Source: Azolla caroliniana (taxonomy: Eukaryota > Plantae > Polypodiophyta). Taken from it: 64,000 nt of DNA. Position 1 is the first letter of the stretch. Each line of letters starts with the position of its first letter. The DNA is taken from the NCBI GenBank assembly GCA_043228905.1, contig JBHGNT010000003.1, positions 8,556,001-8,620,000 on the forward strand. Direction: 5' to 3'. Under the pieces are notes generated by a model. The model searched no databases and was not told where the DNA came from. It saw nothing but the letters and a program-made list of their open reading frames with translations. Positions 18,916 through 64,000 of the stretch are shown piece after piece. A program made the position numbers and the translations under genes.

Positions 18916-19013
18916 TGTTGAGCGGCAAGCTCAATCGGATCCAGATCGGTTGAATAAGCCTGAGCCGGATCGGTGAGCCGGTGAGCAAGTGAGCCGATGA
19001 GTTGGGGAGCCGG

Positions 19014-22000
19014 TGTCGTGCCTTTCAGCTCCGGATCGTTGCGTGAGTCGGGTGGGAACCGCCGAGGTTTTGGACTAGGAGGAGGAAGAATTTGAGGCTA
19101 ATCTAGTTATGAATATGAATAGATTATAAGAAAGAGATATAGAAACTTGTGAATCCCACAAGTATAATTGTTTTAGTTTATCTAAATCGTAGTAATAAAT
19201 TGAAATAATTTAGAATAGATTAGAGTAGATTGAGAAAAGAGATCAAACCTTGTGAATCCCACAAGTATTACATTAATCAATATTTATGTAAGAATATGAA
19301 TTTAGATTGAAAGAGATAGATTATCTTAAACTTCGTGAATCCCACGAGTATATTTTATTGATTGTTGGTGTTTTAGGAAATATATCCAATTTCCCAAATA
19401 TTTTTCACACCTATTACATTGTGCTCCCCATCCTTATGTAGTGATGGGAGAGACTAAGCATAGCTACATGCTTTTTTTCTAATATGTTCATGCACACTAA
19501 ATGTGCATGTGATGCTTTTCTAATCCTTGCTTTTATTTGCTAAATATAGTGCTCATGCACGCTAGATGTGCATGAGTCACTTTTTAGTTGCTTGCGTTTT
19601 TCTATAAAATATTCACGCACTCTAAAAATGCACGATTTACCTTTTAATAAAGGTAGGTGCAAATAAAGCACTTATAGTTATTAAATCTATTTGTAGAACA
19701 CTAAAGATAAGGTAGCATAATGGTAAAGTTTAGGTTTGGCTACGTGGAGGTACAGGGTTCTAATCTTGCCCTATGCACGTGATAAATATCTTGATATATT
19801 ATTTTATTTATTTATATGTAATTAAATCGGTTATATTATTTTTTACTTTTTCACGTAGTGTACGAAATACACTACGACACTCGCCCCCTCCGAACCCGCA
19901 CATCCTCCGGTATGTGCCGAAGTTGCCGATGCTCGTTGTCTCCCCTTCATCCTCCGTTTGTCCCGCTATGTCAACTTTGTCTCTCCATTTTGAGTAGACC
20001 CATTCTTCCCACCCGAACCATTGTCGCCATCCGATCCACCATATTCTTTGTTCTCTCTCGTCATATTCTTGGCCCTTGTCATTCGTGGTAGTGTCTTTTA
20101 CTGGCCTCTTTCTTGTCTTCATCAACCTTGACTTTTTTCCGGATCGCTCTCGTCCGATCGACTTTCGGTTTGATCGGCTTCCGATCGGATTCGTATTCGG
20201 CCGAATCGGAATCGGTTGTTCGGTTTCGATTGAGTTGGTCTCCTTCCGGCCCGGTTTCGATCTATCGGTTTTGGTTTCGGTTGGCTTTCTTTTCCTCGTT
20301 TTCACCAGTCTCGACCGGTCCAACCTCCGGTTGAGTCGGATTAGCTTCTTTCCGGATCGGTCTCGTCCGATTGGCTTTCGGCTAGGTCGGCTTCCATCCA
20401 TATTCGCGTTCGGCCAAGTCAGACTCGGTCGATCGGTTTTGATCGAGTCGACCCCTTTTCGGGTCGGCTTTCTTTCGGGTCGTCCTACGGCTGAATCCTC
20501 ATTCGCCCGGTTCGGCTTTCGTTTGTGTCGTCTTTCGGCCGAATTCTCTTCCTTTCGGTTCGGCTTTCTTTCGGGTCGACTTTCGGTCGAATCCTCTTTT
20601 ACCCGGTTCGGCTTTCTTTCGGATCGGAATCCCGTCCGGATCACCTTCCATCCTAACTGGCTTCTGACTTTACCTTTCTTGCCGCCACCTCCCATCTCTC
20701 CGGTCTCACGTTGCTTCTCAGACACAACCGCCGAAGTCTCTAGGATTAGTGGGTAGGAATCCTCGGTATTATCATCCTCTGTCATTTCAACCATAGCCTC
20801 CTTCTCGGCTATCTCTCCGTCGTATGAATCGGCTTCGACCTTTGTTTTCTCTCCACCACCTTCCGTCTCTTCGGTCTCACGTTGCCTTTCGAACGCAACC
20901 GCCGGAGTCTCTAGATATTGTTGGCATGAATCCTCGGTATTACCTTCTTTCGTAGTTTCACCCTTAGCATTCTTCTCGGCTATCTCTTCATCGTATTCGT
21001 CGGCTTCGACATTCGTTTTCTCTCCGCCACCTTCCGTCTCTTCGGTCTCACGTTGCCTTTCGATCGCAACCGCCGGAGTCTCTGGAATTAGTGGTGGGGA
21101 AGTCTCGATATGGCAATCTGCCATTGATTCGTCCATAGCCACCTCCGATTCGATTTCGTCTTTTGTGGCTACCTCCTTAATCACATCCGCTTCACACTCT
21201 TTATCTGCATCAATTATGCAAACATCTATTATGCTTACCCCTTTTTGACCCGATGTCTCGAGCACTTGTATCCCGAAATTTCCTTCTACACTTGAATTAT
21301 CGGCCTTATCCTTCGCCATCGTTCTTTCACAAGACGAGTGGGTGTCTTGTTCCACTCTTTCTCCCGTGGTACCATCATGTTGTATTTCGGCCTTCATATT
21401 GGCTTCATCGTTTTTCCTCAATCGACCATCCTTCATGGGCCATGTCGTTGTTGACGAGATTCTCAGCTTCCTTTCATCATGTCTTCGGCATACCCTTTCG
21501 ACTTTAGCCCAATCCTCGGTAAGGCCGTTCGCACCGTCATCATCTTCGAGTTCGATCCCAATGTCCATCCTTTCTTTCCGATCGATCGATCTTACGAACA
21601 TTAAGACTTTATCTCCTCCCACCAATCTTCGTTCCCGCTCCGAGAGTCGAGCAAAACGATGCTCGAACTCTAGGAACGCTTGCGTTGCACTTCGGTGAGT
21701 CTTCTCCGACGCCACCCATTCGTCGAATTCTCGTCGATCTCGTCCCGTCCATCTCTCATAGTCATATGCCTCCCGTAAAGCTTCTTCAAAGGACTCCCAT
21801 GTCGAGTTTTGTTGTTGTATCTTGTGGATTCTCTCTTGTAGTTCGTCCGAGGCCACCCGACTAAAGGATATCACTTGCAATCCTTCCGGTATCCGATATT
21901 GCATCATCTCCGCCTTATATTCACGTAGGTAGCGTGACACACCCTTACCGTTGAATTCCCCGTTTCGTCGCAGAAGCCGCTCTACTGCCGCCTTCATCTC

Positions 22001-22985
22001 CGACATCGCTCGTTGTTCTTGTAGCATCCGCTCGAACATCATCATCATCGTTATGCTCATTGCCTCTTGTTGATTCTCCATCTCCTTGCCACCCGCCTTC
22101 ACGTCGGGTTCACCAACTGTGTCGTGCCTTTCGGCTCCGGATCGTTGCGTGAGTCGGGTGGGAACCGCCGAGGTTTTGGACTAGGAGGAGGAAGAATTTG
22201 AGGCTAATCTAGTTATGAATATGAATAGATTATAAGAAAGAGATATAGAAACTTGTGAATCCCACAAGTATAATTGTTTTAGTTTATCTAAATCGTAGTA
22301 ATAAATTGAAATAATTTAGAATAGATTAGAGTAGATTGAGAAAAGAGATCAAACCTTGTGAATCCCACAAGTATTACATTAATCAATATTTATGTAAGAA
22401 TATGAATTTAGATTGAAAGAGATAGATTATCTTAAACTTCGTGAATCCCACGAGTATATTTTATTGATTGTTGGTGTTTTAGGAAATATATCCAATTTCC
22501 CAAATATTTTTCACACCTATTACATTGTGCTCCCCATCCTTATGTAGTGATGGGAGAGACTAAGCATAGCTACATGCTTTTTTTCTAATATGTTCATGCA
22601 CACTAAATGTGCATGTGATGCTTTTCTAATCCTTGCTTTTATTTGCTAAATATAGTGCTCATGCACGCTAGATGTGCATGAGTCACTTTTTAGTTGCTTG
22701 CGTTTTTCTATAAAATATTCACGCACTCTAAAAATGCACGATTTACCTTTTAATAAAGGTAGGTGCAAATAAAGCACTTATAGTTATTAAATCTATTTGT
22801 AGAACACTAAAGATAAGGTAGCATAATGGTAAAGTTTAGGTTTGGCTACGTGGAGGTACAGGGTTCTAATCTTGCCCTATGCACGTGATAAATATCTTGA
22901 TATATTATTTTATTTATTTATATGTAATTAAATCGGTTATATTATTTTTTACTTTTTCACGTAGTGTACGAAATACACTACGACA
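19014..22985 (-). mobile_element. Element C: very young pol-less tRNA-Trp-primed LTR element (3972 bp) with one long ORF
   Basis: 866-bp LTRs at 19014-19879 and 22120-22985, only one substitution seen; TSD CCGG (19010-19013 / 22986-22989); perfect Trp PBS 22099-22115; PPT next to 19880. Confidence 0.95.
19808..22081 (-). CDS. Intact ~757-aa Gag-derived protein: capsid-like N-terminus, acidic PET repeats, basic repeats, Trp-rich C-terminus
   Basis: ORF 19808..22102, first ATG at 22081; N-terminus aligns with B gag (FNGKGVSRYL..VLMFVRSID..GLTEDWAKVERVC vs FSGKDATSYL..LLFVKSVD..GLTTDWAVVKRVC); no PR, RT or INT motifs. Confidence 0.8.
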   Translation of the reverse strand: MENQQEAMSITMMMMFERMLQEQRAMSEMKAAVERLLRRNGEFNGKGVSRYLREYKAEMMQYRIPEGLQVISFSRVASDELQERIHKIQQQNSTWESFEEALREAYDYERWTGRDRREFDEWVASEKTHRSATQAFLEFEHRFARLSERERRLVGGDKVLMFVRSIDRKERMDIGIELEDDDGANGLTEDWAKVERVCRRHDERKLRISSTTTWPMKDGRLRKNDEANMKAEIQHDGTTGERVEQDTHSSCERTMAKDKADNSSVEGNFGIQVLETSGQKGVSIIDVCIIDADKECEADVIKEVATKDEIESEVAMDESMADCHIETSPPLIPETPAVAIERQRETEETEGGGEKTNVEADEYDEEIAEKNAKGETTKEGNTEDSCQQYLETPAVAFERQRETEETEGGGEKTKVEADSYDGEIAEKEAMVEMTEDDNTEDSYPLILETSAVVSEKQRETGEMGGGGKKGKVRSQLGWKVIRTGFRSERKPNRVKEDSTESRPERKPNRKEENSAERRHKRKPNRANEDSAVGRPERKPTRKGVDSIKTDRPSLTWPNANMDGSRPSRKPIGRDRSGKKLIRLNRRLDRSRLVKTRKRKPTETKTDRSKPGRKETNSIETEQPIPIRPNTNPIGSRSNRKSIGRERSGKKSRLMKTRKRPVKDTTTNDKGQEYDEREQRIWWIGWRQWFGWEEWVYSKWRDKVDIAGQTEDEGETTSIGNFGTYRRMCGFGGGECRSVFRTLREKVKNNITDLITYK

Positions 22986-23235
22986 CCGGTTAGGTGGATC
23001 CAGTAGTAACCGGAAGCCTAGTAGCAGCCTAGAGTACTAGGTAGTTAATGTATTGTAGTTAGTGTCAGATGCTCGTGTGAGCATTGAAGTACATTGTACT
23101 TCTGTCAGTCCTCTTAGGACTTGTATAAATAATGTTGTTGAGCATGTAGTATGTACAAAGAATTTTATAGAGAACTATTATTGTTTTGATAATAGATTTA
23201 AGTTGTTCTGCTCTTTCTCTATCTCTCCTGCGTAT

Positions 23236-37327: not shown

Positions 37328-40300
37328 TGTTGAAGACAAGGCCGTCGATGCGGAAGATCTGATAGCATTCGATTCGTGTTGAATACCTGCGTATGACAGT
37401 CTCTAAGATCTTGTGCGACAGAGAGAGAGAGAGAGAGAGAGAGGAGGCACAAAAGACTCTTTCTATTCCATAGAAAACAATAATACAACCACCCTTACAA
37501 AGAGGTTACAAGGTCACTATATATAGTGACCGACTTAGGGCAACTACCATTTATGCTAATTACACAAATGGCCCAAACTTGATCTATACAAAGGGATAGT
37601 GTGAATACGTCCATTATACACTTGTATTCGACACTCCCCCGTAATGGGCGTATACATGGGTTATCTAAGATTACAGGTATAAACCTAGGTTCTCGGACAT
37701 ATCAGTTTTGTTCGAGTCGGCAGGGTCCGAAGGCAGAAGACCGAACTGGTCGGGTCGGAAGAGTTGAAGCCGATCATTAAGGAACTGATGTCGGTTGTCT
37801 GAAACCATCCTGCGCTGTGTCCGGCTCTAACCGGACTGGTTTGTTGTTACGCCCATCTGATGCCGAAGGGACCGAAAGCGGTCTGCCGAAAGACACTTGG
37901 TCATTCCATCTGCGACATTGTCGGTTGTGGATATTTTCTCTAGACCGATTTTCCCTGAAATGACGCAGTCCCGAACGAAGTGATATCGAACGTCGATATG
38001 TTTGGAGGCGTTGTGGTGAACCGGATTTCTCGACAAGGCAACAACACCTTGACTGTCGCTATAGACAACTGGAGCCGAGTCATGGTCGACTTGCCGAAAC
38101 GTATGCGCCAGCCGGCCGAGCCACAAAGCTTCTTTTGCAGCGTCGGACGCAGCTACATATTCTGCTTCGGTTGTTGAGGTCGTTGTGCACTCCTGAAGTT
38201 TCGACTTCCACGAAATTGCTCCATTGCCGAATTTGAAGCAGTATCCGGTTGTTGATTTCCGACTGTCTATACAGCCGGCGAAGTCCGAGTCGGTGTAACC
38301 GACTACGCCTGAGGTTGAGTTCGGACCGAAAAGAATGCCGTGGTCTTTTGTGCCGGCCAGATATTTGAACACATGCTTGACTGCGTTCCAATGCGATCGG
38401 CCAGGATTGTGCATAAATCTGCTAACGACTCCTACGACATGAGAAATATCAGGCCGTGTCGCGACCATCAGGTACATAAGGGAGCCGACTGCCGGTGCAT
38501 ACGGTACCGACTTCATATCTTCCCCCTCCGGACCGGATGTCGGGCAGTCTCGCTGAGAGAGCCGAAGATTCATGGGGAGCGGGGTTGAAGCAGATTTGGC
38601 TGATTGCATGTTGAAGCGTTCCAAGACACGTCCGATATAGTCGGTCTGAGACAAAAAAAGATGTCGTTTATCGCGATGCCGACTAATCTTCATGCCAAGT
38701 ATGTGTCGTGCCGGACCGAGGTCCTTCATGGCAAACTTCAACCGCAATTGCCGAATCAGATCGGTAAGTTCGCCCGCGTGGCGTCCAGAAATTAGCATGT
38801 CGTCCACGTAAATGATGAGGAAGATGGGTGATCCATCTTGAGCTGTGTTGGTAAAAAGACAATGGTCCTCATCGCTTTTTGAGAAGCCGATCGATTGGAT
38901 GAAGTCGTCGAACTTCTTGTACCATTGTCGCGGTGCCTGTTTGAGGCCGTATAGACTCTTCCTGAGTCGGCAAACTAGATGTTCTTGGCCAGTTGCCACG
39001 AAGCCTTTTGGCTGTTCCATATAAATTTCCTCTTCAAGATCACCATGGAGGAAGGCTGTTTTGACATCTAGCTGAATCAGCTCCAAGTTGTCGGCTGCCA
39101 CTACGCCGAGTAGAAAACGAAGGGTTGTCATTTTCACCACTGGTGAAAAAATCTCGTCGAAGTCGACGCCATATTCTTGTCGGAAGCCCTTCGCAACTAA
39201 TCTGGCCTTGTACTTTGGGGTGGTCGAATCAGACGTCTCTTTTAGTCGATAAACCCACTTGCAAGGAAGAGCACGTCGATTCTTAGGTAGTTCGACTAGA
39301 TCCCAGGTCTTGTTTGCCCGAATGGAGTGCATTTCCGACTCCATCGCCAGATGCCAGGTGGCTGAATCGACAGATGTCGATGCTTCTTCGTAAGACGTCG
39401 GTTCGCCGGCGTCGGTGAAGAAAATTCCAGGAGAATACCTCTCCGGAGGTTGCGACAGTCTCTCGGATCGTCGAGGTATGATTGGACTGGTCGCATCGGG
39501 TATCGAGGTCGGATGGTCCGAAAGCGAATTATTCTGTTGTGCCGAGTCGGAGTTGTTCGAGTCGGTGGTGTAAGGTTCAGCTACCCGTGAAGCTGACCGT
39601 GTGTTAAGAGCGGGGCCTTCTTGAAGGGTCGGCACATCGGAAAATGTTACCCTTCGGACTTCGATCAGTTTTTCGACTGATGGATTCATAGCCGACTTGT
39701 TGAACACAACGTCCGAACTTCGAACGATTTGTCTGCGTTCGGGGTCCCAGAGTGGGTATCCCATTTCGCCGTCGGATCCATATCCAAGGAAAATGCATTT
39801 CCTGGACCGAGGTGCAAGTTTTCGGCGATCATCTTTCGGAATAAGGGCGTACGCCTCGCATCCGAAGATCCTCAGTTTGTCGTAATTCGGCTTACTGCCG
39901 ATCCATAGTTCCTGAGGAATTTGAAGTCCTAGAGGTCTGCTTGGCGACATATTGATTATGTGTACTGCCGTGAGTAGAGCCTCTGCCCAGAAGCCATCCG
40001 ACAGTCCGGAGTGTTGGAGCATGGAAACTATCCGTTCTTGGATTGTCCGATTCATGCGTTCTGCAATCCCGTTTTGCTCCGGACTGTGTGGTGCCGTAAA
40101 TTCACGTCGGATGCCGCGTTGTCGGCAGAATTTGACGAATTCTTCTGATTTGAACTCTCCCCCATTGTCGGTCCGAAAGCATTTCAGTTTTCGGTCAGTT
40201 TGATTTTCTACCATAGCGAGCCAATCGGAGAAGATCAAGAAGACACGATCTTTGGTGCGAATTGGATAAGCCCACACCTTTCGAGTCGAATCGTCAATAA

Positions 40301-42642
40301 AACTGACGAAGTAAGAGGCACCGCCGAGAGACTGATGCGGCATTGGGCCACAGACGTCCGAGTGGACTAAATCGAGAGGTCTCGTTTCTCTTGGTGCTGA
40401 TGTCGGGTGTGATGCGGCTGCTTGTTTGCCATACTGGCAATGTTCGCAGAATTGATGGTCCGAGAAGGAGAGTTTAGGGATGTATCCGGCTCTAGATAGG
40501 TGCGTAATGCCGGCCTTGCTGAGGTGTCCTAATCTTCTGTGCCATAGTGATGACACAGGAATATCCACCAAAAACAGGTTACCCTCTCTGAGCGTAACGT
40601 GCAACGGATACAGTGAGTGTATCTTGGGTCCTCTAGCAAGCAGGAGGTTCCCCCTGTGGAGTGTCCACCCTCCCGAAGAAAAACCGGCACGAATGCCGTC
40701 TTCATCTAGTTGTCCGACTGAGATCAATGGCCTTGAGAGCTCGGGTACATGTCGGACATTGTGAAGTACAAGTGTAGAGCCACCTGCAAGGTTGAGCTCT
40801 ACTGTGCCGATTCCAATGATGTCACAGTGTTGCGAGTTGCCGACTCGAACTGAGTCGGAGTGACGGATCGTATATTGCCGAAATTGGGATCGATGAGGAG
40901 TCACGTGAAATGACGCGCCTGAATCTAAGAGCCATGTGCTCGATTCTTCAGTCGTGAGCAGAACTTCTGATCCGACTGGATTTTCGATTGATAGTATATT
41001 CGGGTCGTTTGGTAGCACATTAGCTGAGAAGCTGACGTAATTGATCTCCTCATGCCGGCCACTCTTCTTGTCTGATTTCTGAGACTTGTCGTTCTTGTTC
41101 TTGAGTGCGCGGCAGTCGGCTTTGATGTGTCCGGGTTTCTTGCAATAGTTGCAGATTCGATTATCCCGTGACTGGCTCCGTCTTCGCTGATTGTTCGGCT
41201 GCCGTGAGGAATCTCTTCCTCGTATGTTTGATCGGTCTGTCGAACCTTGTACTACATAAGCGTCGTCTGTTGAGTCTTTGGCGAAAGACTTTCTCCGAGC
41301 TGCTTCGGTCAGGATTGCGCTCGTGACTTCGGAGTATTTAACAGCCGTGGTTGACGCGTTGCACACGGTTGTGACGAAAGTTTCCCATGATGAGGGAAGG
41401 CTGCTCATGAGTATCATTGCTCTGAGTTCATCCTCGATTGCCGTCCCCTGAGATGAGATTTGGGAGCTTATGCTTTCGTACTCATTGAGATGTGCTTGAA
41501 CCGAATCTGATTCTTTCATCCGCAAGTTGTAGAGGCGCCGGATCAGAAACATCTTTGTTGCAGGGACCTTCTTTTCGTAAGTGTCCGACAGTGTTTTCCA
41601 CAGTTCGAATGCTGTCGTACACGATTGCACCGTAAAGTATACCGATTCCGATAGGTGCATCCGAATCGTGGCGCGGACGATTCTGTCCAGCTTCTGCCAC
41701 TCAATTGGTTTGTATCCTTCTGGAGGTTCTTCATTTTCGATGGGATCGATTTGCCCCTTGACTATGAGATAGTCCTGCATTTGCTCCTTCCAGAAGTTGA
41801 AGTTCGATCCATCGAACTTTCGTAGACTCATTTCTGACGAGCCGGATGTTGATGCCATCAAATTTGGTTTCGGTTGACGAAGCTCGGTTCGGAGTTGACT
41901 AGGAACCTTGTTGGAGTGCAGCCGGTTGGCTCACCCGATATCGTTCTAGTCAGATTTGAACCCGAGTCGGTTCGGCTTCGGATATATGTATTGTTGAACT
42001 TGCTCGAATTGATTCCGGTAACTTGAGGGACAGAACCGACTGGTCTTCCCGAATGTTGCCGAGTCGGAGTGAGCCCGGTTCGCTTCCGAATATATATGCC
42101 AAATACCGATTATTGAAACCGATTGTCTGGACCGATTCTGCTTCGGGTGACTGCAGCGACGAGAGAGACGGATCCAACTGATCCTCCCGAATGTCGATCA
42201 GCCGGATGAAGCACGAATTTGGGTTGTTGTCTTGAGACCGATCTGCACCGAGTGGTTACAATGAGCGGCAAGCAGCGTTTGATGACCTCTTCGGATGCCG
42301 TTTAACCGAGTGGAGCACGATCGTGTCAATGTTGCACAAGGGGATTTCACCTCAAGCGGTTACGATCACAAGGAACAGAGTACAACCGGCTGGCTTACTC
42401 CAAGCGAAGATGATCTAACGCGATGAGATGCAAGCCTCGTTTTTCTTCTTCTTCTCTCTTCTTCGAATGACGCAAGAAACCGAATGCTGTGCAGGCTGAG
42501 ACGACGGCCGACAGCGGGTTGAAGGACCGAATACTGTGCAGGCTCTGATACCAAATGTTGAAGACAAGGCCGTCGATGCGGAAGATCTGATAGCATTCGA
42601 TTCGTGTTGAATACCTGCGTATGACAGTCTCTAAGATCTTGT

Positions 42643-42680
<38 letters not shown>

Positions 42681-42867
42681 GCACAAAAGACTCTTTCTAT
42701 TCCATAGAAAACAATAATACAACCACCCTTACAAAGAGGTTACAAGGTCACTATATATAGTGACCGACTTAGGGCAACTACCATTTATGCTAATTACACA
42801 AATGGCCCAAACTTGATCTATACAAAGGGATAGTGTGAATACGTCCATTATACACTTGTATTCGACA
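37328..42867 (-). mobile_element. Element I: intact, very recent Ty1/Copia (Tnt1/Tork-like)
   Basis: LTRs 37328-37633 and 42556-42867, apparently identical except for (GA)n length; TSD CTTCC; iMet PBS 42542-42553; PPT next to 37634. Confidence 0.97.
37827..41861 (-). CDS. Intact Copia Gag-Pol polyprotein, 1344 aa
   Basis: [112 protein letters not shown]. Confidence 0.97.
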   Translation of the reverse strand: MMASTSGSSEMSLRKFDGSNFNFWKEQMQDYLIVKGQIDPIENEEPPEGYKPIEWQKLDRIVRATIRMHLSESVYFTVQSCTTAFELWKTLSDTYEKKVPATKMFLIRRLYNLRMKESDSVQAHLNEYESISSQISSQGTAIEDELRAMILMSSLPSSWETFVTTVCNASTTAVKYSEVTSAILTEAARRKSFAKDSTDDAYVVQGSTDRSNIRGRDSSRQPNNQRRRSQSRDNRICNYCKKPGHIKADCRALKNKNDKSQKSDKKSGRHEEINYVSFSANVLPNDPNILSIENPVGSEVLLTTEESSTWLLDSGASFHVTPHRSQFRQYTIRHSDSVRVGNSQHCDIIGIGTVELNLAGGSTLVLHNVRHVPELSRPLISVGQLDEDGIRAGFSSGGWTLHRGNLLLARGPKIHSLYPLHVTLREGNLFLVDIPVSSLWHRRLGHLSKAGITHLSRAGYIPKLSFSDHQFCEHCQYGKQAAASHPTSAPRETRPLDLVHSDVCGPMPHQSLGGASYFVSFIDDSTRKVWAYPIRTKDRVFLIFSDWLAMVENQTDRKLKCFRTDNGGEFKSEEFVKFCRQRGIRREFTAPHSPEQNGIAERMNRTIQERIVSMLQHSGLSDGFWAEALLTAVHIINMSPSRPLGLQIPQELWIGSKPNYDKLRIFGCEAYALIPKDDRRKLAPRSRKCIFLGYGSDGEMGYPLWDPERRQIVRSSDVVFNKSAMNPSVEKLIEVRRVTFSDVPTLQEGPALNTRSASRVAEPYTTDSNNSDSAQQNNSLSDHPTSIPDATSPIIPRRSERLSQPPERYSPGIFFTDAGEPTSYEEASTSVDSATWHLAMESEMHSIRANKTWDLVELPKNRRALPCKWVYRLKETSDSTTPKYKARLVAKGFRQEYGVDFDEIFSPVVKMTTLRFLLGVVAADNLELIQLDVKTAFLHGDLEEEIYMEQPKGFVATGQEHLVCRLRKSLYGLKQAPRQWYKKFDDFIQSIGFSKSDEDHCLFTNTAQDGSPIFLIIYVDDMLISGRHAGELTDLIRQLRLKFAMKDLGPARHILGMKISRHRDKRHLFLSQTDYIGRVLERFNMQSAKSASTPLPMNLRLSQRDCPTSGPEGEDMKSVPYAPAVGSLMYLMVATRPDISHVVGVVSRFMHNPGRSHWNAVKHVFKYLAGTKDHGILFGPNSTSGVVGYTDSDFAGCIDSRKSTTGYCFKFGNGAISWKSKLQECTTTSTTEAEYVAASDAAKEALWLGRLAHTFRQVDHDSAPVVYSDSQGVVALSRNPVHHNASKHIDVRYHFVRDCVISGKIGLEKISTTDNVADGMTKCLSADRFRSLRHQMGVTTNQSG

Positions 42868-49190: not shown

Positions 49191-52100
49191 TGTCGCGTTA
49201 TTACGCGCGTGTGTGTAGAAAGGTGGGACCACGGGGGTCCTGGACTAGCGAGTGACAGAGCGCAGGAAGTCGTGCTTCACCCTTTTCGGGGCACCCCAGG
49301 AGCACACTAGAAGCAACCGAACGAGAGAGAGAAAGAGAGGGAGACAGAGAGGGAGCGCGTGCTTGACACCGACTCATGCATACACACGCACACACCGACT
49401 CGACTCACGCCCTTATGTGCAGGAACGCAGGAAAGGGGAAGTACCCAACACCAACAGAGACACGAGTATACACAGACAGACGCAAAAGTATGTATTACAA
49501 GGGAAAGAATACAACCCCGGCTTCGAGCCGGACCAAGCTAGGGTAGGTTACAACAGTAGTCTGCAGCCAAGGCGCCGTCCGGGGAGCTCTCGGGCTCGTC
49601 ACGCAGAGCGGGGTCTTGCATAGGAGACCGAGCGGGAACAACCCTCCACAGTCCACCCACACCGTGAAGAAGAGGAAGAAGAAGTAGAAGAACTAACCCT
49701 AAATCTAACGGTATACCCTCTAACAAAAAATGGGCAACCCCTCTACAAGGGACCATCCCTTCCTTTTATAGAACAAGGAGAGGGATGCGTTACAATGTGG
49801 GTTAAATCCTGATTTACATGGGATTCTTCGTCCCGACTTGACTCTTATTATTCACACAATTACATGAGGGAGAGTGCACATGGTGCACCCCGCCGATGTA
49901 GCCAATATTTCCCGGTTTCCGCCTCTGGACGAAATTCTTCACGACATTCGCCCCCATCTAACAACACGTCCACCACTATGTGCCAAATCTGGTGAAGGGT
50001 GAGAGATTTCGGCCGGTGAGAAACCGGTCTTCCGTAATCCGCACCCCGGCTCGCTGCCGGTTTGAACCATCAGCTTCGGTTCTACCTTCGCGCTTACCTC
50101 CCCGTAGGCTCGTTTGACTCGTCGATGGGTCCTTCGCCGCGATCTCTGTAGTACGCGTACTTCCGCTGGCCCTTGTTCGGCCGTATGCACGCTCCGTTCT
50201 CCGCCGTATGCTCGATGTCCTCCACTTGAAGAACGCCCATAGTGGCCCGCTTGGCCTCCGTCGACCATTCGTGTTGTCCTGATTGCCTTCCCATGTTGCT
50301 TCGCGTTGCCTTCGTCCTCTCGCCGCCACCTTCCTTCTCCATGGTCTTACGTCGCTGCGTCGGCTCGAACCGCCATGGTCTCCGGAACGGTGTGGAGGAT
50401 CTTTTTCTGGCCTTCTACGCGCTACCTCCGAACTGCGCAACCCATCTTCGCACTCGCCTTTCCACTCCGGCACCTCCGTGTGCCGCATACCCTCGTCCGT
50501 TGTTTAGCACTGCCTGTGCCGTACTCCGATTCATTGCACGCCTTGTCGGCCCCTTTCTTGGCTAGATCGTGCACCGCCGCTCACCCGCATACCAGTGTCC
50601 TCCGCATCCGAGGAACACCCCGTAGTAGCTCGCTTGGCCCTTCCCGTCTTCGTGCTGCTGCAACAGGTCCTGAGTTTTCCGCTTGCTGTCGTCCCCTCGC
50701 CCCCACCAGCTTGTCACCCCGGGCTTGCCGTGTCAGTCTTCGCTACCTCGACGGAGCTATCGAGATCTACGAAGCAAGTGTGGAGGATCCTCCTCTGGCC
50801 TCTCTTGCCATCCCCTAACTCCGACCCTGTGCAATCCACTAGGCACCCGTCACCTCGTTCCCGGCACCTCCCTTGTGCCGTCTTCTGCTTCCTTTGTTCG
50901 GCACCACCCGTGCCGAACACCGTCCAATAGTCACGCTTCGATCCGGCCCACGATGGCCACTTGCGAGACTCTTGTTCCGTCCCAGGTGTGCCTTTTCGGC
51001 CCGACACACCTCCCCGGGTTTGCCCTACCGGCTCCTTCCGCTACCGTAACCGGCCGGTAAGGGCTCCACACTTCGTTCGTCCTGTCTTACCGACCTTTGT
51101 CGATGCCAGGTCCCGTCCCTTGCCGCCACCTTCCTTCTCCCTCGGTCTTACGTTGCCACGTCGGTCGAACAACCGTGGTCTCCGGAACGGTGTGAAGATC
51201 CCATAGGACCGGTCTTCGTTTCGTTGCTTGCCGAAATTCAGGGTGTCTTTGTTGGAGTCCCTCCCGGATTCTCCTCGTGTCTTCTGCGTAGCCGCCACCA
51301 ACCTCTCTCGGTCTCATGTTGCCACGTTGGCCGACCAGTCGGAGTCTCTGGTTTGGTGTGGGGATCCCGTAGGACCGGACTTCCTTACGCCCACTCACCT
51401 TGCCGGAAGGTTTGAGATGGTCCGTAGCCGCCTTGCAGGCCTGATACCTTCTTTCTCTACTTCCGTCGTCCGATCACGTTCACCTGCCGCCACCTATCTT
51501 CCCTATAGGACTCACGCCGGCACTCGGGCCGACCGCTGGATCGGTGTGAGGATCTTCATGGGACCTTGGTTTGCCCGCCCTTGTCCCCCCGCCACCACCG
51601 TCAATATCTTGGTCTTACGCCGACCGCGCTGCTGACTGCCGAAGTCTCTAGATCCAGTGTGAAGGATCCTCCTTGGGCTCCTCGTATCCTTGACCCTTAT
51701 CCCGGGTCTTCCTTCTTTTGCAAGTCGAGAGGGTGGCTTGCTCCACACCCTCTCCCGTGGTACCGACGTACCGTGTTCCCGGCCTCTTCATAGGCCTGCT
51801 CTCTTCCTCCCTCCCGCAATGGTTATCTGGGAGTCCACTCCGCCCGGTTCTCGTCCGGGTCCGTTCGTCATTCTCCGGATTGCCGGGTCCCGTTTTCCTG
51901 TCGCCACCGACCTCTCCTATAGGACTCACGCTGGTACTCGGGCCGACCGCCGGATTGGTGTGAAGATCTCATGGGACCGGTCTTTGTTCTCCTCTTCATC
52001 CCCGTACTTCTCTGTAACTTGTCGCCACTCTCCTTGTTGCGTTCCCGCCTCCATCTTCCATCTCTTTCGGTCTTACGTTGCCCCGTTGACCGAACAGCCG

Positions 52101-54637
52101 TAGTCTCCGGATAGGATGTGGCGTAACCGATTTCGCAACGTCTTTTGGCAACTCGTCCGGGCCACCGCCCCTTTTAGTGGTGTCGGTGGATAGCATCTGC
52201 TCTGTGATCAATCAAGCCCCGCCTGAGCTTGATTCTCCAATGTCCGGAGTTTCGGCTCCGATGCCGATCTTGCCAGACTCGTTCCGAACCTCTGATCACC
52301 CTCCTTCCAATTCCCGACCTTCGCCCGCTCGGTCTTTCTCCCCATGTAAAATAGGGCGGCTCGCCCCACACCCTCTCCCGTATCGGCACCTTTATGCCGA
52401 ATCCGGCCCCGATCGAACAATCCACGACCGGATTATGCTCCACCCGTATCAGAGCGTCACACGTTTCGGTCCCCGGTCGGGTTGTCCCTTGGTCTCTTCG
52501 TCGACCTTTTCGCGGGCCTTCTCCCATCCATCTTCGATGGCATCGTGCCAGGACTCCTTGATACCGTCATCCATCTCCGCAGTCTCACTTGGGCATAAGG
52601 GCCCGAATGCCGAGTTCTCCGGAATCGGGTTCGAGGGCTTTTGTCCGCTCCTTCCCCGTATCGTCTCGCCGGTGATTCTTGGTCTCTCGCAGCCGTCTTC
52701 CTCCTCTTGGGACTTACGTGGGCACTCGGGCCTGACTATCGTCGTCTCGGGAGCAAGTGTGAGAAGACGCAAAGAATCGCCCATCCGTTTTACGCCCTTG
52801 TCCGTAGCCACCGGCTCTTCGTGGTCGGCGGTCGTCTCCTTACCGATCGCGCAAGCCCCGTCTGGGCTTGCTTCTCCAATGACCGAGGTTTCGGGCTGAC
52901 ACGCCTGACACCGCTGGTTCCAACGTTCCGATCCCACGATCGGTATCTCGGCCTCGTCCTTGGCCGTTCTATCTCCGCAAGTTGAGAGGGCGTTTTGTTC
53001 CGCACCCTCTCTTGTGGTACCGTGGTACCGACCTTCCGTCATCGCGTGGGGCAAGTCCGTCTCCTCAGTCTCGGCTTGCGGCCTCGATCTTTCCTCTTCC
53101 TTGAGCATTGCCTCGAGAGCTGCGTATGCCTCCAAAATCCTGGCCCCAACGCCGACCCTTGCCGACTCTCTTTGCCGTTCGGCCTCTTCCCGCTGTGATG
53201 GCATGCCGTCGCGCGCCTTCCTCTTAGCCTTTTCGGCTCGCTCATTGTCTAGACGTTGGCACACCCTTCCAACCTTCGACCAGTCCTCCGAAAGCCCATT
53301 TGCTCTGTCATCATCTTCGAGCTCAATCCCGATGGCCTCCCGTTCCGCTCGGTCAATCGACCTGACGAACAATAGGACTTTGTTCGCCCCCACCAAACCT
53401 TGTTCCCGTTCCCGGAGCCGAGCAAGCCATCGCTCGAACTCCCAAAACGCCTTCATTGTGCCACGGTGGGTCTTTGCCGATGCTACCCACTGGTCGAAGT
53501 CGTGCCGTCCCCGGCTCTTCCGCCGTCCTCCATATGCCTGCAGGGAGCGCCTCTTCAAAGGCCTCCCACGAACTATGAGCTTGCCGGAGCTCCTTCACTT
53601 CCGCGTGTGTACGGACGACGACAACCCAACAGAAGAACTCCAGCCTCAATGCTTCGTCCACGTCTCGCTCCTCCATTTCCGCATTGTAGGCTTCCAAGTA
53701 AGATGGGACTTCATCCCCGTTGAAACGGCCGACTCTTTTGACCACTCGCTCAACCGCTTGTTGCGCTGCTTCTCGCCTCATCACCACTCGTGCCGACTCC
53801 AACACCACTACGGCCACCATCACCGCGAGGTCGTCGTCTTCCGATTCCATCCTCCCTTGCCGCCTTTCACGTCGGGTTCACCAAATATGTCGCGTTGTTA
53901 CGTGCGTGCGTGTAGAAAGGAGGGACCACGGGGGTCCTGGACTAGGGAGTGACGGAGTGCAGGAAGTCGTGCTTCACCCTTTTCGGGGCACCCCAGGAGC
54001 ACACCGGAAGCAACCGAACGAGAGAGAGAAAGACAAGGAGAAAGAGAGGGAGCGCGCGCTTGACACCGACTCACGCACACACACACCGACCCGACTCACG
54101 CCCTTGTGTGCAGGAACGCAGGAAAGGGGAAGCACCCGACACCAACAGAGACACGAGTATACACAGACAGACGCAAAAGTATGTATTACAAGGGAAAGAA
54201 TACAACCCCGGCTTCGAGCCGGACCAAGCTAGGGTAGGTTACAACAGTAGTCTGCAGCCAAGGCGCCGTCCGGGGAGCTCTCGGGCTCGTCACGCAAAGC
54301 AGGGTCTTGCATAGGAGACCGAGCGAGAACAACCCTCCACAGTCCACCCACACCGCGAAGAAGAGGAAGAAGAAGTAGAAGAACTAACCCTAAATCTAAC
54401 GGTATACCCTCTGACACAAAATGGGCAACCCCTCTACAAGGGACCATCCCTTCCTTTTATAGAACAAGGAGAGGGATGTGTTACAATGTGGGATAAATCT
54501 TGATTTACATGGGATTCTTCGTCCCGACTTGACTCTTATTATTCATACAATTATATGAGGGAGAGTGCACATGGTGCACCCCGCCAATGTAGCCAATATT
54601 TCCCGGTTTCCGCCTCTGGACGAAATTCTTCACGACA
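49191..54637 (-). mobile_element. Element F: pol-less tRNA-Trp-primed LTR element with a GC-rich LTR whose U5 end resembles B
   Basis: LTRs 49191-49946 and 53888-54637; TSD ATGT/ACGT; perfect Trp PBS 53867-53883; PPT next to 49947; no PR, RT or INT motifs internally. Confidence 0.93.
49976..53850 (-). pseudogene. Element F Gag-derived long ORF, frameshifted, with an expanded PET-type repeat tail
   Basis: 53353..53850 (VGRFNGDEVPSYLEAYNAEM) and 52449..53558 (VLLFVRSID..GLSEDWSKVGRVC; PETTIVRPECPRKSQEEE); PETTVVRPTWQRKTEGEG in 51087..51398. Confidence 0.75.
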
Positions 54638-58800: not shown

Positions 58801-60666
58801 GGAGAGCATGGCAGAGTCTCCACCACTTGCCGTCTCTTCATCCGACTGGTCCAACCGACTCAGTCGCTCGTTCGGTCCATTCAACCGTAACGATTCCGGA
58901 CTCTCATCTTGAGTCCCTGCATCATCATCCTCTGCCAGGGCTGATTCAGGCTCACTGGCCTGATCTTCCGGCATTGGGTCGGGATCGGAAGTCGGAGTTG
59001 GTACGGAGTACCAGGATGCCGATTCGTCGAACTCGACATCCCGGCTAACTCGGACTTCGTCCGGGGGTTATAGCACTTATACCCCTTTTGCTCTTGAGCA
59101 TAGCCGACTAGGATGCATTTGTCCGATTTTGCATCCAGCTTTCTCCGCTTCTGATCCGGCACATGCACATACGCTATGCTGCCGAATATCCGAAGGTGTC
59201 TTAAGTTCGGCTTGTGCCCGAAATACAGCTCATGAGCTGACACCTTTTCACTGATGCGGTTTTGTATGTAGACGGCCGTCTGGACCGCCTCCGCCCAGTA
59301 GAACCGGGGCATGCTCTTTTTTTTCCAGCATTGCCCTTGCTGCTTCGACGAGTGTCCGGTTCTTCCTTTCGGCCACACCGTTTTGCTCTGGTGTGTATCT
59401 GCAGCTGAACTCTCGCCGAATTCCCTTCTGCTGTAGATAACTAGTGAATTGGCCGGAAAAATATTCCTTTCCGCCATCCGACCGAAGGCATTTGATCTTC
59501 CTCTCCGATTCTCGTTCCACCATCTTCTGGAGGCTCCGGAAACAGTCGAAGACTTCGCTCTTCCGCTCAATGAGGTAGATCCAAGTATGTCGAGTATAGT
59601 CGTCGATGAAGGAGACGAAGTACCGGCTCCCGCCAAGGCTTACACTTTGTGCCGGTCCCCACACATCCGAATGGATGAGATCGAGCTTGTTACGGCTCCG
59701 GTTCCGTTCGGTGGGGAATGGAAGCCGATGTTGCTTCCCAAGTTGGCAGGCTTCACAAATTTCAGCTCTCCGGCCGCTGAACTTTGGCAAACCGAAAACG
59801 ACTTGTTTCGTTTGCAGGTCTTGAAGCCTCCGGTAGTTGACGTGGCCTATCCGCTTGTGCCATAGGTCGATGTCCGACTCGACCTTCTGTCGTTTCGCGA
59901 ACAGAGCGGTGCCAATGTCATTGGTGTTGAGGATAAACATCCTCCCGTCTCTGCGCCCTTGCGCAATGACTTCGCCCTCATCCTCAATGAAGCACCCGAG
60001 GTGTGTAAACCGCACCTACATCCCCTGGTCGACAATCTGACCGACGGACACCAGGTTCTTCGTGATCGTCGGAACGGGTAATACGTTCATCAGCTTCCCT
60101 TTCTGTCCGACGTGGCTTAGAGGGACTTCTCCGACGTGCACGATTGGGTGTGGAGTGTCGTCTCCGGTTTCGACTACTCCTAGCTGATCCGGTTTCTCCA
60201 GAAAGGAAAACCACTCTTTGTGGCTCGTCATGTGGTTCGACGCGCCGGAATCAACATACCACACTTCCTCCGTTTTGGAAGTGTTCTTCTTCATTGAGTT
60301 TGCCTTGTGATTCATCACCAAGGCTGGCCCCTTACCGGCCTTTCCGGTTCCGGATCCTCCTGATCTGTTTGCGTAGTGCGAGTTTTGCCGGCCATCCTTA
60401 CCGGTCTTGCCGGATCTGGATTTCTCTGAATCGGCTCGCTTTCTCCAGCACTCGCTTTCCCTGTGGCCTTTTTTGCCACAGTACCAGCATTCCGTAGCGG
60501 ATTTGTCTTGCCGGCCTCCGGCACCGCCTTGACTCCCCCTGCTTGTGGAAGTTCCGGAACTGCTGTCGGCACACTCATAGTGCCTCCGTTCCTGCTCTTG
60601 CCGGCCGCCTCCATTGCGTGCCGACCCACCTCTTCCACCATGCCCACAGTGTCGATCCATTCCCGT
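55859..60666 (-). mobile_element. Element J: degenerate D-related Ty1/Copia, nested in the K 3' LTR and interrupted in gag by element G
   Basis: 3' LTR 55859-56244; PPT at 56245; ORFs 60016..60660 (CWYCGKKGHRESEC, WYVDSGASNH), 59248..60015, 58132..58974, 57646..58110 and 56833..57252. Confidence 0.92.
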
Positions 60667-61367
60667 TGTCGTGATGTGGCATGTCTAGTGCGAGAAAAAC
60701 TCAAAAAATGAGGATCCACACACATTTCACGAATACTTGTAAAAATGAAAATAAATAAACCTAGGTCACAATGGCATTGAGTGCATGTAGAGGGTTGCAA
60801 GTAGGATTTGAACCTTGCACCTCTAAGGTAAGAGGCAATTACCTTACCACTAAAGCTACTACAAAGTGCTTTAGATGTTCTATATTTCTTTCTCATATTC
60901 AATATTCCGTAGGAAACAAACGAACAAAACCGTGTACACAAAACCACGGTTTTAAGCCCATGGTTTCCTGCAGGTCACAAAGCAAAACTGTGTGCACAGA
61001 AACCATGGCTCCAAGCCCATGGTTTTGTGCATGGACAAACCTATAAAACCCCTAGTACGGCTTGTGTAAGGGGGGGCTCAATATGATATGACCATCATCA
61101 TCACCATCAATAATATAAGCTTCTATTTCTTCTTCTTCGCATCTATCTTGTAATTATTTATCTACTTCTGAAAGTGTACAATCTTCAATCTTCTCAAGTG
61201 TAATAGGTCTTCCTCCAATCTTACATTCACATCGTCCTCTTCTCAATACCTTGACGAACATCCTCCTTGGTCCAAGACCCCGGTGGTCCCGCTCAAGCGA
61301 AGCACGCTCGCACGCGCATCTTCGCGACATATTTTGGCAAACCCGACGTGAAGAGCGGTAGGGGAGG

Positions 61368-64000
61368 ATGAAGCTGGACGAGGAATATCTAATGAAGGCA
61401 ATGTCAAAGATGATGATGGAGTTTTCAAGAGAAGGGAAAACACGACATGCGGCCCAACAAGCTGTTGAAAGCATGATGAAGCGAGTCGGGGTTTTTGATG
61501 GAGGCAAAGTCCAAAAATTTCTAAAGGCCTACAATGCCGAAATGGATTCAAGAGGAGTGGAGGAAGCAATGAAGCTGGAGTACTTTTGTCGAGTGGTGGC
61601 CGAACCGATCTTCGAAGAGATTAAAGAGATTCAAAAAACTCACGATTCGTGGGTGTCCTTCAAAGAAGCTTTACGAGAATCATATGGTTACGAAGAGCAA
61701 AAGGGACGAGGTCTGTATGAGTTTCACAAATGGGTGTCATCGAGAAAGACCCACCAGAGTGCTATGCATGCATTCGTTGAGTTTGAGTATCGCTTCGCTC
61801 AACTCTCGGACCGGGATCGAAGATTGGTGGGGGTGAATAAAGTTCTGATGTTTGTAAAGTCAATCGATCGGAAAGAAAGGAAGACCATTGGAATCCAACT
61901 CGAGGATGACAATGGTGAAAATGGCCTCACTGAGGATTGGGCCAAAGTGGAAAGGGTATGCCGACAACACGATAAGAGGGAGATGAGACTCTCATCGACA
62001 ACAACACGACCCACAAGGGATGTTCAAAGGACAATGGGATGTGGCAATAAAAACCCACTGAAGGAAGAAAGCTCGAAGAGGGAAGCTTCGAAAGAACTAA
62101 ACATAGAAGCCTTGATGAGAGAGGCAATAATGAACTTAAAGGCACAAGTCGGGGTTGAAGAGAAGCTGAAAACAAAACCGAGGAAAATGGTGATCAACGA
62201 AGAGGAGACCTCTCGACAAATGCAGACTAATGGTACAGCCAATACGAAGGCCCAGGTTCGGTATGACAGTACCATGGGAGAAGGTGTGAAACAAACCACC
62301 TTCTCGACTTATGGAGGAACGACGGTCGAGAGAAGGGCCAAAGACTCGAGAGCGGGAAATGCTGCTTTAAGAGTGGACAAGCATTTCGGAACACATGATG
62401 TGTCCGAAATATCGAGTAATGAAGGTGCAAGCATGAGGGAAGCTTGCGTGATCAAGGGATGTAAAGAGTGCGAGGTCGACGTGATTGAGGCGGTAGCCAC
62501 GAGGAACGACATCGAGTCGCAGATGGCTAAGGAAGAGTCCACGACGAATGACCGTGTCGAGACTTTCCTAACACTTGATCTAGAGACTTGGGCAGTTGCG
62601 TTCGAGAGCCAACATGAGACCCAAGAGACGGAAAGTGGTGGGGAAGAAAATATTGAAGACAATGCGAATAACAACATTGAGCGAAAGATGGCTACGGATG
62701 AGAAGACGGTGACAGATGGTGTCGACGTTCTCCCCACAATTGTTCCTGAGACTTCGGCAGTTGTGCTCGAGTGTCAACGTGAGACCGGAGAGATGGAAGG
62801 TGACGGCAAGAAATCGAAGGACCAAAACGGCGATGAGGACGATGACCACAAACGAAGGGATCCCTCCACACCGGTTCCGGAGACTTCGGTAGTTGTGCCC
62901 GAGAGCCAACATAAGACCGGAGAGATGTCGAATACAAGTGTATAATGGACGTATTCACACTATCCCTTTGTATAGATCAAGTTTGGGCCATTTGTGTAAT
63001 TAGCATAAATGGTAGTTGCCCTAAGTCAGTCACTATATATAGTGACCTTGTAACCTCTTTGTAAGGTTGGTTGTATTATTGTTTTCTATGGAATAGAAAA
63101 AGTCTTTTGTGCCTCTTCTCTCTCTCTCTCTCTCTCTCTGTGCACGATCTTGGAAACTGTCATACGCAGGTACTCGAAACCCTAATCGAATGCTTCTTGA
63201 TCTTCCGCATCGACACGGCCTTGTCTTCAACAAGAGATGGAAGGTGGCAGTGAGGAGATGAGGGTCGAAGCCAGCACATACAGAGGAACGATGGCCAACA
63301 AGGAGGCCAAAAATAAAGCTACAATAGAGTTCGATGAAGAGCCAAAGAGCGGAAAGAAAGGAAGAACTGGAATACAATCTGGATGGAAGATGAAGTCGTT
63401 GGTATTCCAACCCGAACGGAAGCCAACCCGAACGAGAGTTGATCAACCGGGCCCGACCCAACTGAAAACCGGACGGAAACTAACCCGGACGAAAGTCGAT
63501 CATCTGATTCTGATTCGGCCGAATGTGAATCCGAACGAAGGCCGACCAAGCCAGAAGTTGATTGGTCGAGACCGATCCCGACAGAAGTTGAGCCGGCCTA
63601 GACGGAGGTCGAAGCAAACAAGCCGCGACATCCAGTCGAGGCTGTTGAGCATAAGGAAAGGCAAGCATGAGACAAGAAAGGATGATAAAGAAAAGTTAAG
63701 TGACCAAGGAGATGGCCGAGATGAAGGTGGCACATGCACGAGGCATGAAGCGTTATGCTCGGGAGGAGCAAAGGGAGCCATGACAACTAGACATGACAAT
63801 AAAACAGGTGAGCGAATGATATGGTGGATCGGATGGCAACGACAGTTCGAAGTAGACGGCAAAAAGATGGTGCGGACGAGCCGCAAGAAAGGAGGAAGTC
63901 AAACACCAACCGCCTTTGACCCTTCCACATCACTCTTTTCTTCTTGGCACATACCGGAGGATGTGCAGTTTGGTGGGGGTGGATGTCGTGATGTGGCATG
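61368..64000 (+). pseudogene. Element G Gag-derived long ORF (>770 aa once the solo LTR is removed), homologous to the C ORF
   Basis: ORF 61368..62945 is cut by a solo LTR; by manual translation the frame resumes at 63237 and is stop-free to the window end (KKGRTGIQSGWK..ERKPTR..IGRDRSRQKL..IWWIGWQ..FGGGGCR). Confidence 0.85.
62926..63232 (+). mobile_element. Solo LTR of the element I Copia family
   Basis: Reverse-complement match to the I LTR; TG...CA termini; TSD AGAGA (62921-62925 / 63233-63237). Confidence 0.95.

What the first reader, a model, noticed from the sequence alone, without database searches (positions are those of the whole stretch)
61368..64000. G ORF is stop-free across ~2.3 kb after solo-LTR removal and colinear with the C ORF
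Removing 62926-63237 joins HKTGE|MEGGSEE in frame, with no stop to the window end. Motif pairs C/G are: KKGKVRSQLGWK/KKGRTGIQSGWK, ERKPNR/ERKPTR, RPSRKPIGRDRSGKKL/RPSQKLIGRDRSRQKL, IWWIGWR/IWWIGWQ and FGGGECR/FGGGGCR. Frame retention despite heavy divergence, many indels and different LTRs is independent evidence that the low-complexity tail is under selection as protein. The six-frame track does not show this because of the insertion and the window edge.
Basis: seen in the sequence. Interest (0 to 1): 0.7.

Follow-up and report, generated by a model that had tools for sequence, protein, structure and literature searches.

The report
Gag-only retrotransposon with tryptophan-tipped tail
A large family of plant (likely fern) jumping genes that lack their own copying enzymes keeps one reading frame open from a predicted capsid domain, through a long spacer whose amino acids change almost freely, to a short tryptophan-rich end motif; that motif, not the spacer, is likely what selection preserves, and it would act as a docking hook.

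Summary
Observation largely confirmed, interpretation half right. G is a 3.7-kb gag-only LTR retrotransposon (TR-GAG type). A copia solo LTR interrupts this copy; both flanks are stop-free and in one frame, and none of 39 other G tails carries the insertion. The stop lies 43 nt into the 3' LTR, just past the window. The frame is selected: repeat and rearrangement offsets shared by three or more copies are multiples of three in 124 of 129 cases (non-independent). The spacer's amino acids are mostly not: dN/dS is about 1, against 0.33-0.47 in the capsid. FGGG(G/E)CR is only the polypurine tract plus LTR start, read in different frames by sister families. The constant part is W[W/R]IGW (1,579 genomic matches). 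Its synonymous site varies about ten times more than the next Trp base, and shared stops fall just after it, not in the 50 codons before. Best reading: capsid, disordered spacer, terminal Trp docking motif acting in cis; partner unknown. Rival: translation itself protects the RNA. No expression evidence. My look-ups found no earlier scan note on this motif.

The parts
60663..60666 (+). Left target-site 4-mer (CCGT); the far end of the inverted sister copy beyond the window is followed by CCAT
   Evidence: G-family TSDs are 4 nt
60667..61329 (+). 5' LTR of element G (663 nt, TG...CA), with an internal near-palindromic repeat
61330..61355 (+). Primer-binding-site position; core AACCCGACGTG shared with window elements C and F; tRNA not identified
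61368..62012 (+). Gag: N-terminal long helix plus two-lobed capsid domain (predicted), under purifying selection
62013..62925 (+). Linker and acidic imperfect repeats (units 132, 165, 297 nt), stop-free, dN/dS 1.1-1.5
62926..63232 (+). Copia solo LTR inserted into this copy only; 5-nt TSD AGAGA at 62921-62925 and 63233-63237
63238..63818 (+). Basic, predicted-disordered tail, same frame as the 5' piece, dN/dS about 1 (0.66-0.86 in the last 45-50 codons)
63819..63839 (+). IWWIGWQ, the conserved Trp motif of the clan
63946..63983 (+). Conserved pre-PPT box and polypurine tract, shared with the pol-coding Gypsy element whose box lies at 30997 (-); source of the apparent FGGGG peptide
63984..64000 (+). 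Start of the 3' LTR; the frame stops at LTR nt 43-45, beyond the window; the LTR is cut at about nt 340-365 and joined to an inverted G copy
19013..22986 (-). Element C, a sister gag-only family (868-nt LTRs, unbroken frame to its 3' LTR, Trp motif at 20041)

Best explanation
G is one interrupted copy of a gag-only LTR retrotransposon clan whose single reading frame runs from a predicted capsid domain through a predicted-disordered spacer to a Trp-rich end motif, and selection likely keeps the frame open so that this motif is made on the element's own Gag, where it would serve as a docking hook. Shown: LTR-PBS-site-ORF-PPT-LTR anatomy, no pol, recent spread, frame-preserving inheritance, purifying selection on the capsid, near-neutral amino-acid change in the spacer, constraint on W[W/R]IGW. 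Inferred: RT and integrase are borrowed from the co-resident DUF4100-type Gypsy elements that share the 3' signals; the protein acts in cis (a product shared in trans would not purge frameshifts from the copy that carries them); the basic segment stands in for the missing zinc knuckle as RNA binder; the spacer is a length-tolerant tether that grows and shrinks by in-frame template switches; the Trp cluster binds a protein pocket, most likely on the helper's particle or enzymes, bringing the element's RNA along. The partner is not identified.
For: Anatomy and youth: LTR pairs differ by 0.3-2.9% in 15 of 15 G copies with both LTRs; 1,620 and 1,517 first-look candidates for the G and C tails; 30 of 31 motif-bearing elements with an upstream PBS-like site have no RT/INT match between it and the motif. 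Capsid: pLDDT 92, best matches dArc1 capsid Z 11.0 (159 aligned, rmsd 10.8), Arc N-lobe Z 8.2 (rmsd 2.5), C-lobe Z 7.8 (rmsd 2.8), copia and Ty3 capsids. Frame: in 33 full G copies all 13 non-triplet indels are private and the one shared indel is 6 nt; frame-blind offsets with 3 or more carriers are in frame 124 of 129 times, private ones 308 of 595; all 8 internal repeat spacings in G and C are multiples of three. Spacer: dN/dS about 1, model pLDDT 44 with the only long helix at the Trp motif; PBS-to-motif distance 1,449-4,455 nt. Motif: 1,579 genomic matches, control 2; Gly third base differs from A in 317 matches, the adjacent Trp first base differs from T in 31 (control 7), of about 1,330; four further Trp positions outside the search pattern change to no other residue in 26 of 26 sequences (5 stops). 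Stops: among 60 elements, 0 of 17 stop sites in the 50 codons before the motif are shared, 5 of 20 in the 50 codons after it are (one-sided p 0.036); G's own shared stops lie 2-3 codons after WWIGW; several database proteins end at WWIGW plus 0-5 residues.
Against: Most of the tail shows no amino-acid constraint, which translation-only selection predicts equally. The stop-position test is modest (p 0.036) and the 60 elements were found by the motif's own DNA pattern, so families that lost it are invisible. Genome counts are copies, not events. The segment after the motif gives dN/dS 0.34-0.41 on only 15-18 codons and does not reject 1 in the codon model (2dL 2.9). Window element F, gag-only with the same PBS core, has no motif match and no continuous frame. 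Four copies (L143, L151, L174, L179) lack the capsid C-lobe yet keep the frame, so a complete own capsid is not required. Within G alone the tail evidence is thin: shared variants give dN/dS 0.62-1.23. Transcription and translation are not shown.
Confidence: 0.55

Rival explanations
1. Translation, not the peptide, is selected: ribosomes must run to near the 3' LTR so that the RNA avoids a long 3' UTR (nonsense-mediated decay or small-RNA silencing), and the Trp motif is a 3' RNA signal that happens to lie in frame.
For: dN/dS about 1 over 300-900 codons; frame kept after loss of the capsid C-lobe; all stops lie near the 3' end; long 3' UTRs are reported NMD triggers in plants (PMC6009662, passages); the motif DNA keeps four GG doublets.
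Against: Shared stops appear from 6-10 codons after the motif but not in the 50 before it; the Trp first base, a loop position in a GG-quadruplex reading, is about tenfold less variable than the synonymous base beside it; no common hairpin in 7 sequences folded (no shuffle control); in the moss P. patens long 3' UTRs did not predict NMD (the host here is likely a fern, so this transfers weakly).
Confidence: 0.25
2. The Trp motif is a GW-type Argonaute hook: the Gag tail dampens RNA silencing of its own RNA, as some plant-virus capsid proteins do.
For: IGW is invariant, FGW follows in the C families and (F/L/S)GWK recurs upstream; setting is a disordered tail; GW-motif suppressors such as TCV P38 capsid and SPMMV P1 exist (PMC4432016, passages).
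Against: Only 10 of 45 recurring Trp contexts are GW and they reduce to about three homologous sites; none is WG; short families keep a single terminal GW; a diffusible suppressor would be a shared good and weakly selected in cis.
Confidence: 0.1
3. The Trp/Arg cluster anchors Gag or the particle to a membrane.
For: Favourable interfacial energy, -3.8 to -9.6 kcal/mol over 11 residues in 36 of 36 peptides (scale values recalled); predicted helix at tail residues 190-203.
Against: Not amphipathic: 0 of 36 peptides exceed 90% of their shuffles; too short to span a bilayer; exact spelling W-x-I-G-W is kept.
Confidence: 0.07
4. No current selection: the families are young and simply inherit the open frame of a recent coding ancestor.
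For: One copy at 3-6% divergence stays stop-free with P 0.27-0.51; 29 of 34 full G copies are already broken upstream of the PPT region.
Against: Families differ by dS 0.24-0.31 in the tail, where 4-5 stops and 3-9 frameshifts per region are expected; dozens of inherited duplications and deletions are triplet-sized; no matching tail in 30 loci of the pol-coding gag family.
Confidence: 0.03

Closest known systems
TR-GAG elements (Chaparro et al. 2015, PMC4350172; abstract, part of Methods and passages read)
   Same: Under 4 kb, LTRs, PBS position, PPT, one gag ORF, no pol, multi-copy.
   Different: Coffea TR-GAG1 has a 433-aa copia-type Gag with a zinc knuckle; G has a gypsy-type capsid that Pfam does not hit, no zinc knuckle seen, and about 570 further codons ending in a Trp motif. 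The word 'selection' does not occur in that paper's main text.
Arabidopsis TR-GAG AT5TE33540 (PMC8704663, passages read)
   Same: Gag-only element with a single long ORF (562 aa), shown there to transpose with a likely autonomous partner.
   Different: Copia family, close to its partner; no spacer or terminal motif described in the passages seen.
Modular non-autonomous LTR families of sugar beet (PMC13570524, passages read)
   Same: Families reshuffle shared modules and LTRs; 28 keep only GAG/PROT.
   Different: Coding remnants described as patchy; here the reshuffling preserves one frame.
Ty3/gypsy-derived capsids dArc1, Arc, Ty3 (PDB 6s7x, 6tap, 4x3h, 6r24)
   Same: Two-lobed capsid fold after a long N-terminal helix.
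   Different: 7-17% identity; no acidic-basic spacer or Trp tip; a shared fold shows no function.
GW-motif silencing suppressors, TCV P38 and SPMMV P1 (review PMC4432016, passages read)
   Same: Capsid-linked protein carrying GW dipeptides.
   Different: Virus proteins with tested AGO1 binding; here 1-3 GW sites in a hydrophobic cluster, untested.

Membership tests
TR-GAG | Two LTRs with TSD | tested here: met
   663-nt TG...CA LTRs; 4-nt TSD exact in 10 of 15 copies, one mismatch in 5. The window copy's own 3' LTR is cut and joined to an inverted copy.
TR-GAG | Length under 4 kb | tested here: met
   Uninterrupted G copies span about 3.67 kb (e.g. L039:743-4409); some sister families exceed 4 kb.
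TR-GAG | Single ORF with a Gag capsid domain | tested here: met
   Fold matches, Atlas neighbours Retrotrans_gag at 0.94 with 122-132 shared features, weak Retrotrans_gag hits in 3 of 22 relatives. Pfam does not hit G itself.
TR-GAG | No RT, RNase H or integrase | tested here: met
   No room or Pfam match in G; 30 of 31 clan elements without RT/INT match, one with an antisense fragment.
TR-GAG | PPT before the 3' LTR | tested here: met
   Purine tract directly before TGTCG, shared with a pol-coding element.
TR-GAG | PBS complementary to a host tRNA | tested here: inconclusive
   Conserved site after the 5' LTR in G, C, F and 31 of 60 elements; not matched to a tRNA.
TR-GAG | Two or more copies | tested here: met
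   40 scored matches at 90-100% of 1,620 candidates.
TR-GAG | Transcribed | not testable with these tools
   No run on record as RNA was available.
Named plant Ty3/gypsy clade (Phygy, Selgy, Tcn1, OTA; PMC6317226 passages) | Placement of the helper's RT-RH-INT in a reference tree | not tested
   Only RVT_1, RT_RNaseH and DUF4100 hits for the window's pol-coding relative.
GW/WG Argonaute-hook proteins | Repeated GW/WG in a disordered region | tested here: inconclusive
   About three homologous GW sites, no WG; disorder predicted.
GW/WG Argonaute-hook proteins | Trp-dependent Argonaute binding | not testable with these tools
   Needs a binding assay.

The most novel reading that the evidence does not exclude
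Gag-only parasites have evolved de novo, from repeat DNA, a C-terminal Trp hook on a long tether that captures a specific protein: either the helper element's replication machinery (letting even capsid-truncated copies hijack particles) or a host Argonaute (a retrotransposon-encoded silencing suppressor).
Probability: 0.25. Interest if true: 0.8.

Novelty: new variant of a known kind. Interest (0 to 1): 0.5.

Why it matters
Gag-only elements are known, but why they keep Gag, and whether it works for its own RNA, is open. Here over a thousand copies give a natural experiment: the frame is purged of inherited breaks while 300-900 codons drift, which implies a cis-acting product or cis-acting translation. 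A five-residue motif makes the question directly testable, and the clan shows how a long ORF can be built and maintained with almost no amino-acid constraint.

Tried and rejected
Pfam on both G pieces, C, F and the A core: no hit at cut-off. Atlas on the tail: no usable hit. Complex prediction of host Argonaute MID-PIWI + G capsid + Trp peptide: no answer, score 0.00, alignments not used; no evidence either way. Sequencing runs: no RNA holder listed; contigs of three runs laid on a G copy say nothing on expression. Amphipathic-helix reading rejected. Gap-by-gap indel counts in diverged blastn alignments gave many shared non-triplet gaps (3n:non-3n 2:5, 1:8, 14:8, 7:11, 1:1, 19:30, 16:42), largely nearby insertion-deletion pairs; I judged them alignment artefacts and replaced them with the ungapped offset test, but did not resolve each one. 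My first reading of G's shared stops as hitting a Trp was wrong. One-mismatch motif count (2,101, control 64) mixes W/R variants and was not decisive. Origin of the tail: no clear match in 30 loci of the pol-coding gag family; motif-bearing proteins outside this genome were only unnamed assembly proteins (5, 14). FGGG(G/E)CR rejected as a peptide motif. Literature searches (open-access full text only) listed no paper describing such a tail; I judged most by title and abstract start, and read no supplements.

Full report
What the place is. The window is a nest of LTR retrotransposons in a 523-Mb genome (G000:C3:8556001-8620000). The host is likely a fern: the best named match of a host Argonaute exon is a Ceratopteris protein at 69%, seed-plant hits lie near 50%. 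Element G has a 663-nt LTR at 60667, a PBS-position site, ATG at 61368, a PPT and a 3' LTR from 63984. It encodes no pol.

The observation. A 307-nt solo LTR of the window's copia family sits at 62926-63232 between two AGAGA copies. The pieces on either side are stop-free and in the same window frame; as it stands the frame ends inside the solo LTR. The genome holds the answer directly: the tail search gave 40 scored matches of 1,620 candidates; I fetched the 39 other than the window's own, and none has the insertion. Of 34 full-length copies, 4 have an unbroken 780-782-codon frame, one reaches 772, and 29 are broken earlier. The stop is at nt 43-45 of the 3' LTR. The motif pairs exist, but tail identity to C is 26% with many gaps, and FGGG(G/E)CR is the PPT plus LTR start: the box before it is read in different frames by G and C, and the PPT in all three frames across the clan.

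A clan, not a pair. The DNA for WWIGW occurs 971 times (control 0), W[W/R]IGW 1,579 times (control 2). I fetched 60 of the 100 listed places, not at random: I skipped several evident G and C copies and favoured rarer codon variants, plus 20 of the 40 best C copies. They carry several unrelated LTRs and mosaic tails; 31 of 60 have a PBS-like site 1,449-4,455 nt upstream and 30 of these have no RT or integrase match in between. LTR pairs of G copies differ by 0.3-2.9%, so the spread is recent.

The frame is selected. In 33 aligned full G copies, 13 of 13 non-triplet indels are private and the only shared indel is 6 nt. A frame-blind test measured the offset of homologous DNA blocks relative to the motif: offsets carried by three or more copies are multiples of three in 124 of 129 cases, by two copies in 42 of 76, private ones in 308 of 595; the five exceptions consist mostly of G copies with private indels. 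Offsets are sums of the same events, so the printed p-values overstate the case. All 8 internal repeat spacings are triplet-sized. A neutral model expects 4.4 stops and 3.5 frameshifts in the tail at the between-family distance of 0.25, but only about one stop within G. A cruder gap count showed many shared non-triplet gaps, mostly compensating pairs.

The amino acids mostly are not. Between families dN/dS is 0.43 and 0.33 for the G and C capsids, 1.15 for the linker, 1.44 and 1.01 for the acidic repeats, 1.03 for both basic tails and 0.83-1.04 for three other families; shifted-frame controls of the tails range 0.73-1.27. Codon models agree: capsid 0.44 and 0.47 (2dL 10.5, 41.1), pre-motif block 0.66 (5.8), the other six blocks 0.41-1.49 without rejecting 1. 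These include neutral post-insertion changes, which pull values towards 1, but the capsid shows the test has power. The N-terminal 215 residues fold as a two-lobed Gag capsid (pLDDT 92; dArc1 Z 11.0; Foldseek rows all E above 0.001). The tail model has pLDDT 44 with one helix over the motif; charge runs from acidic to basic. The zinc knuckle of the pol-coding relative is not seen in G (by inspection).

The motif is the exception. Genome-wide, the Gly third base differs from A in 317 matches, the adjacent Trp first base differs from T in 31, control 7, of about 1,330. Trp2 tolerates Arg (360 matches). Four later Trp positions, outside the pattern, change to no other residue in 26 sequences. Among the 60 elements none of 17 stop sites in the 50 codons before the motif is shared, while 5 of 20 sites after it are (p 0.036); G's shared stops lie right after WWIGWQ, one in three related copies. 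Independent assembly proteins end at the motif. Limits: copies are not events, and elements were found by the motif itself. Element F in the window has no match.

Mechanism. Shown: gag-only anatomy, frame selection, capsid constraint, motif constraint. Inferred: enzymes come from the DUF4100-type Gypsy lineage that shares the pre-PPT box and PPT (capsid 33% identical); the product acts in cis, since otherwise frameshifted copies would spread equally; the basic stretch binds RNA; the Trp cluster docks on a protein. Four copies that lost the capsid C-lobe still keep the frame to the motif, which fits a hook-plus-N-lobe adaptor and also fits translation-only selection. I give 0.9 to frame selection, about 0.7 to the peptide being its target, 0.55 to the whole reading. 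The main rival is RNA protection by translation (0.25); Argonaute hook 0.10, membrane anchor 0.07, no selection 0.03.

What is known. G meets the tested TR-GAG criteria (PMC4350172: abstract, part 2 of 6 of the text and passages); TR-GAG mobility is shown in Arabidopsis (PMC8704663, passages); modular non-autonomous families are described in sugar beet (PMC13570524, passages). Clade names come from PMC6317226 (passages), NMD features from PMC6009662 (passages), GW suppressors from PMC4432016 (passages). Ten searches of the open library listed nothing on a frame-preserved spacer with a terminal Trp motif; subscription papers and supplements were not seen. The G-quadruplex idea and the hydrophobicity scales are recalled. 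Verdict: a real feature, a new variant of a known kind, interest 0.5.

Noticed in passing
window 60663-64000 plus L031:1-3620: G is one arm of an inverted pair: its 3' LTR is cut at the LTR's internal near-palindrome and joined to a second, opposite G copy (94-95% identical inside, 98% in the LTR part). Both outer ends are LTR 5' starts, the host copia continues across them, and the flanks CCGT/CCAT fit one 4-nt TSD with a CpG change: likely a two-template product inserted as one unit.
   Followed up: partly
G copies L033-L069: Target-site duplications are 4 nt with a central CG on at least one side in 15 of 15 copies, suggesting CpG-centred integration.
   Followed up: partly
L143, L151, L174, L179 (and protein P0155): A subfamily lacks the capsid C-lobe, crosses the junction through about 25 unrelated residues and keeps the frame to the Trp motif; two copies have LTR starts 99.6% identical.
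   Followed up: partly
L120-L123, L133, L146, L150: Families with the TGTCGTGAAG LTR carry the Trp motif as tandem 45-nt (15-codon) repeats.
   Followed up: partly
L037: Tandem array of two G copies sharing a middle LTR.
   Followed up: no
window 49191-54372 (-): Element F: gag-only, same PBS core and related capsid, long purine-rich repeat region, broken frame, no Trp motif match.
   Followed up: partly
window 37325-42867 (-): Copia element with an unbroken 1,367-codon gag-pol frame and near-identical LTRs; source family of the solo LTR, also seen inserted just after the motif in L140 and L145.
   Followed up: no
L210:970-2562, L211:1309-2874: Two host Argonaute genes encode MID-PIWI in one long exon and are closest to a fern protein.
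   Followed up: no
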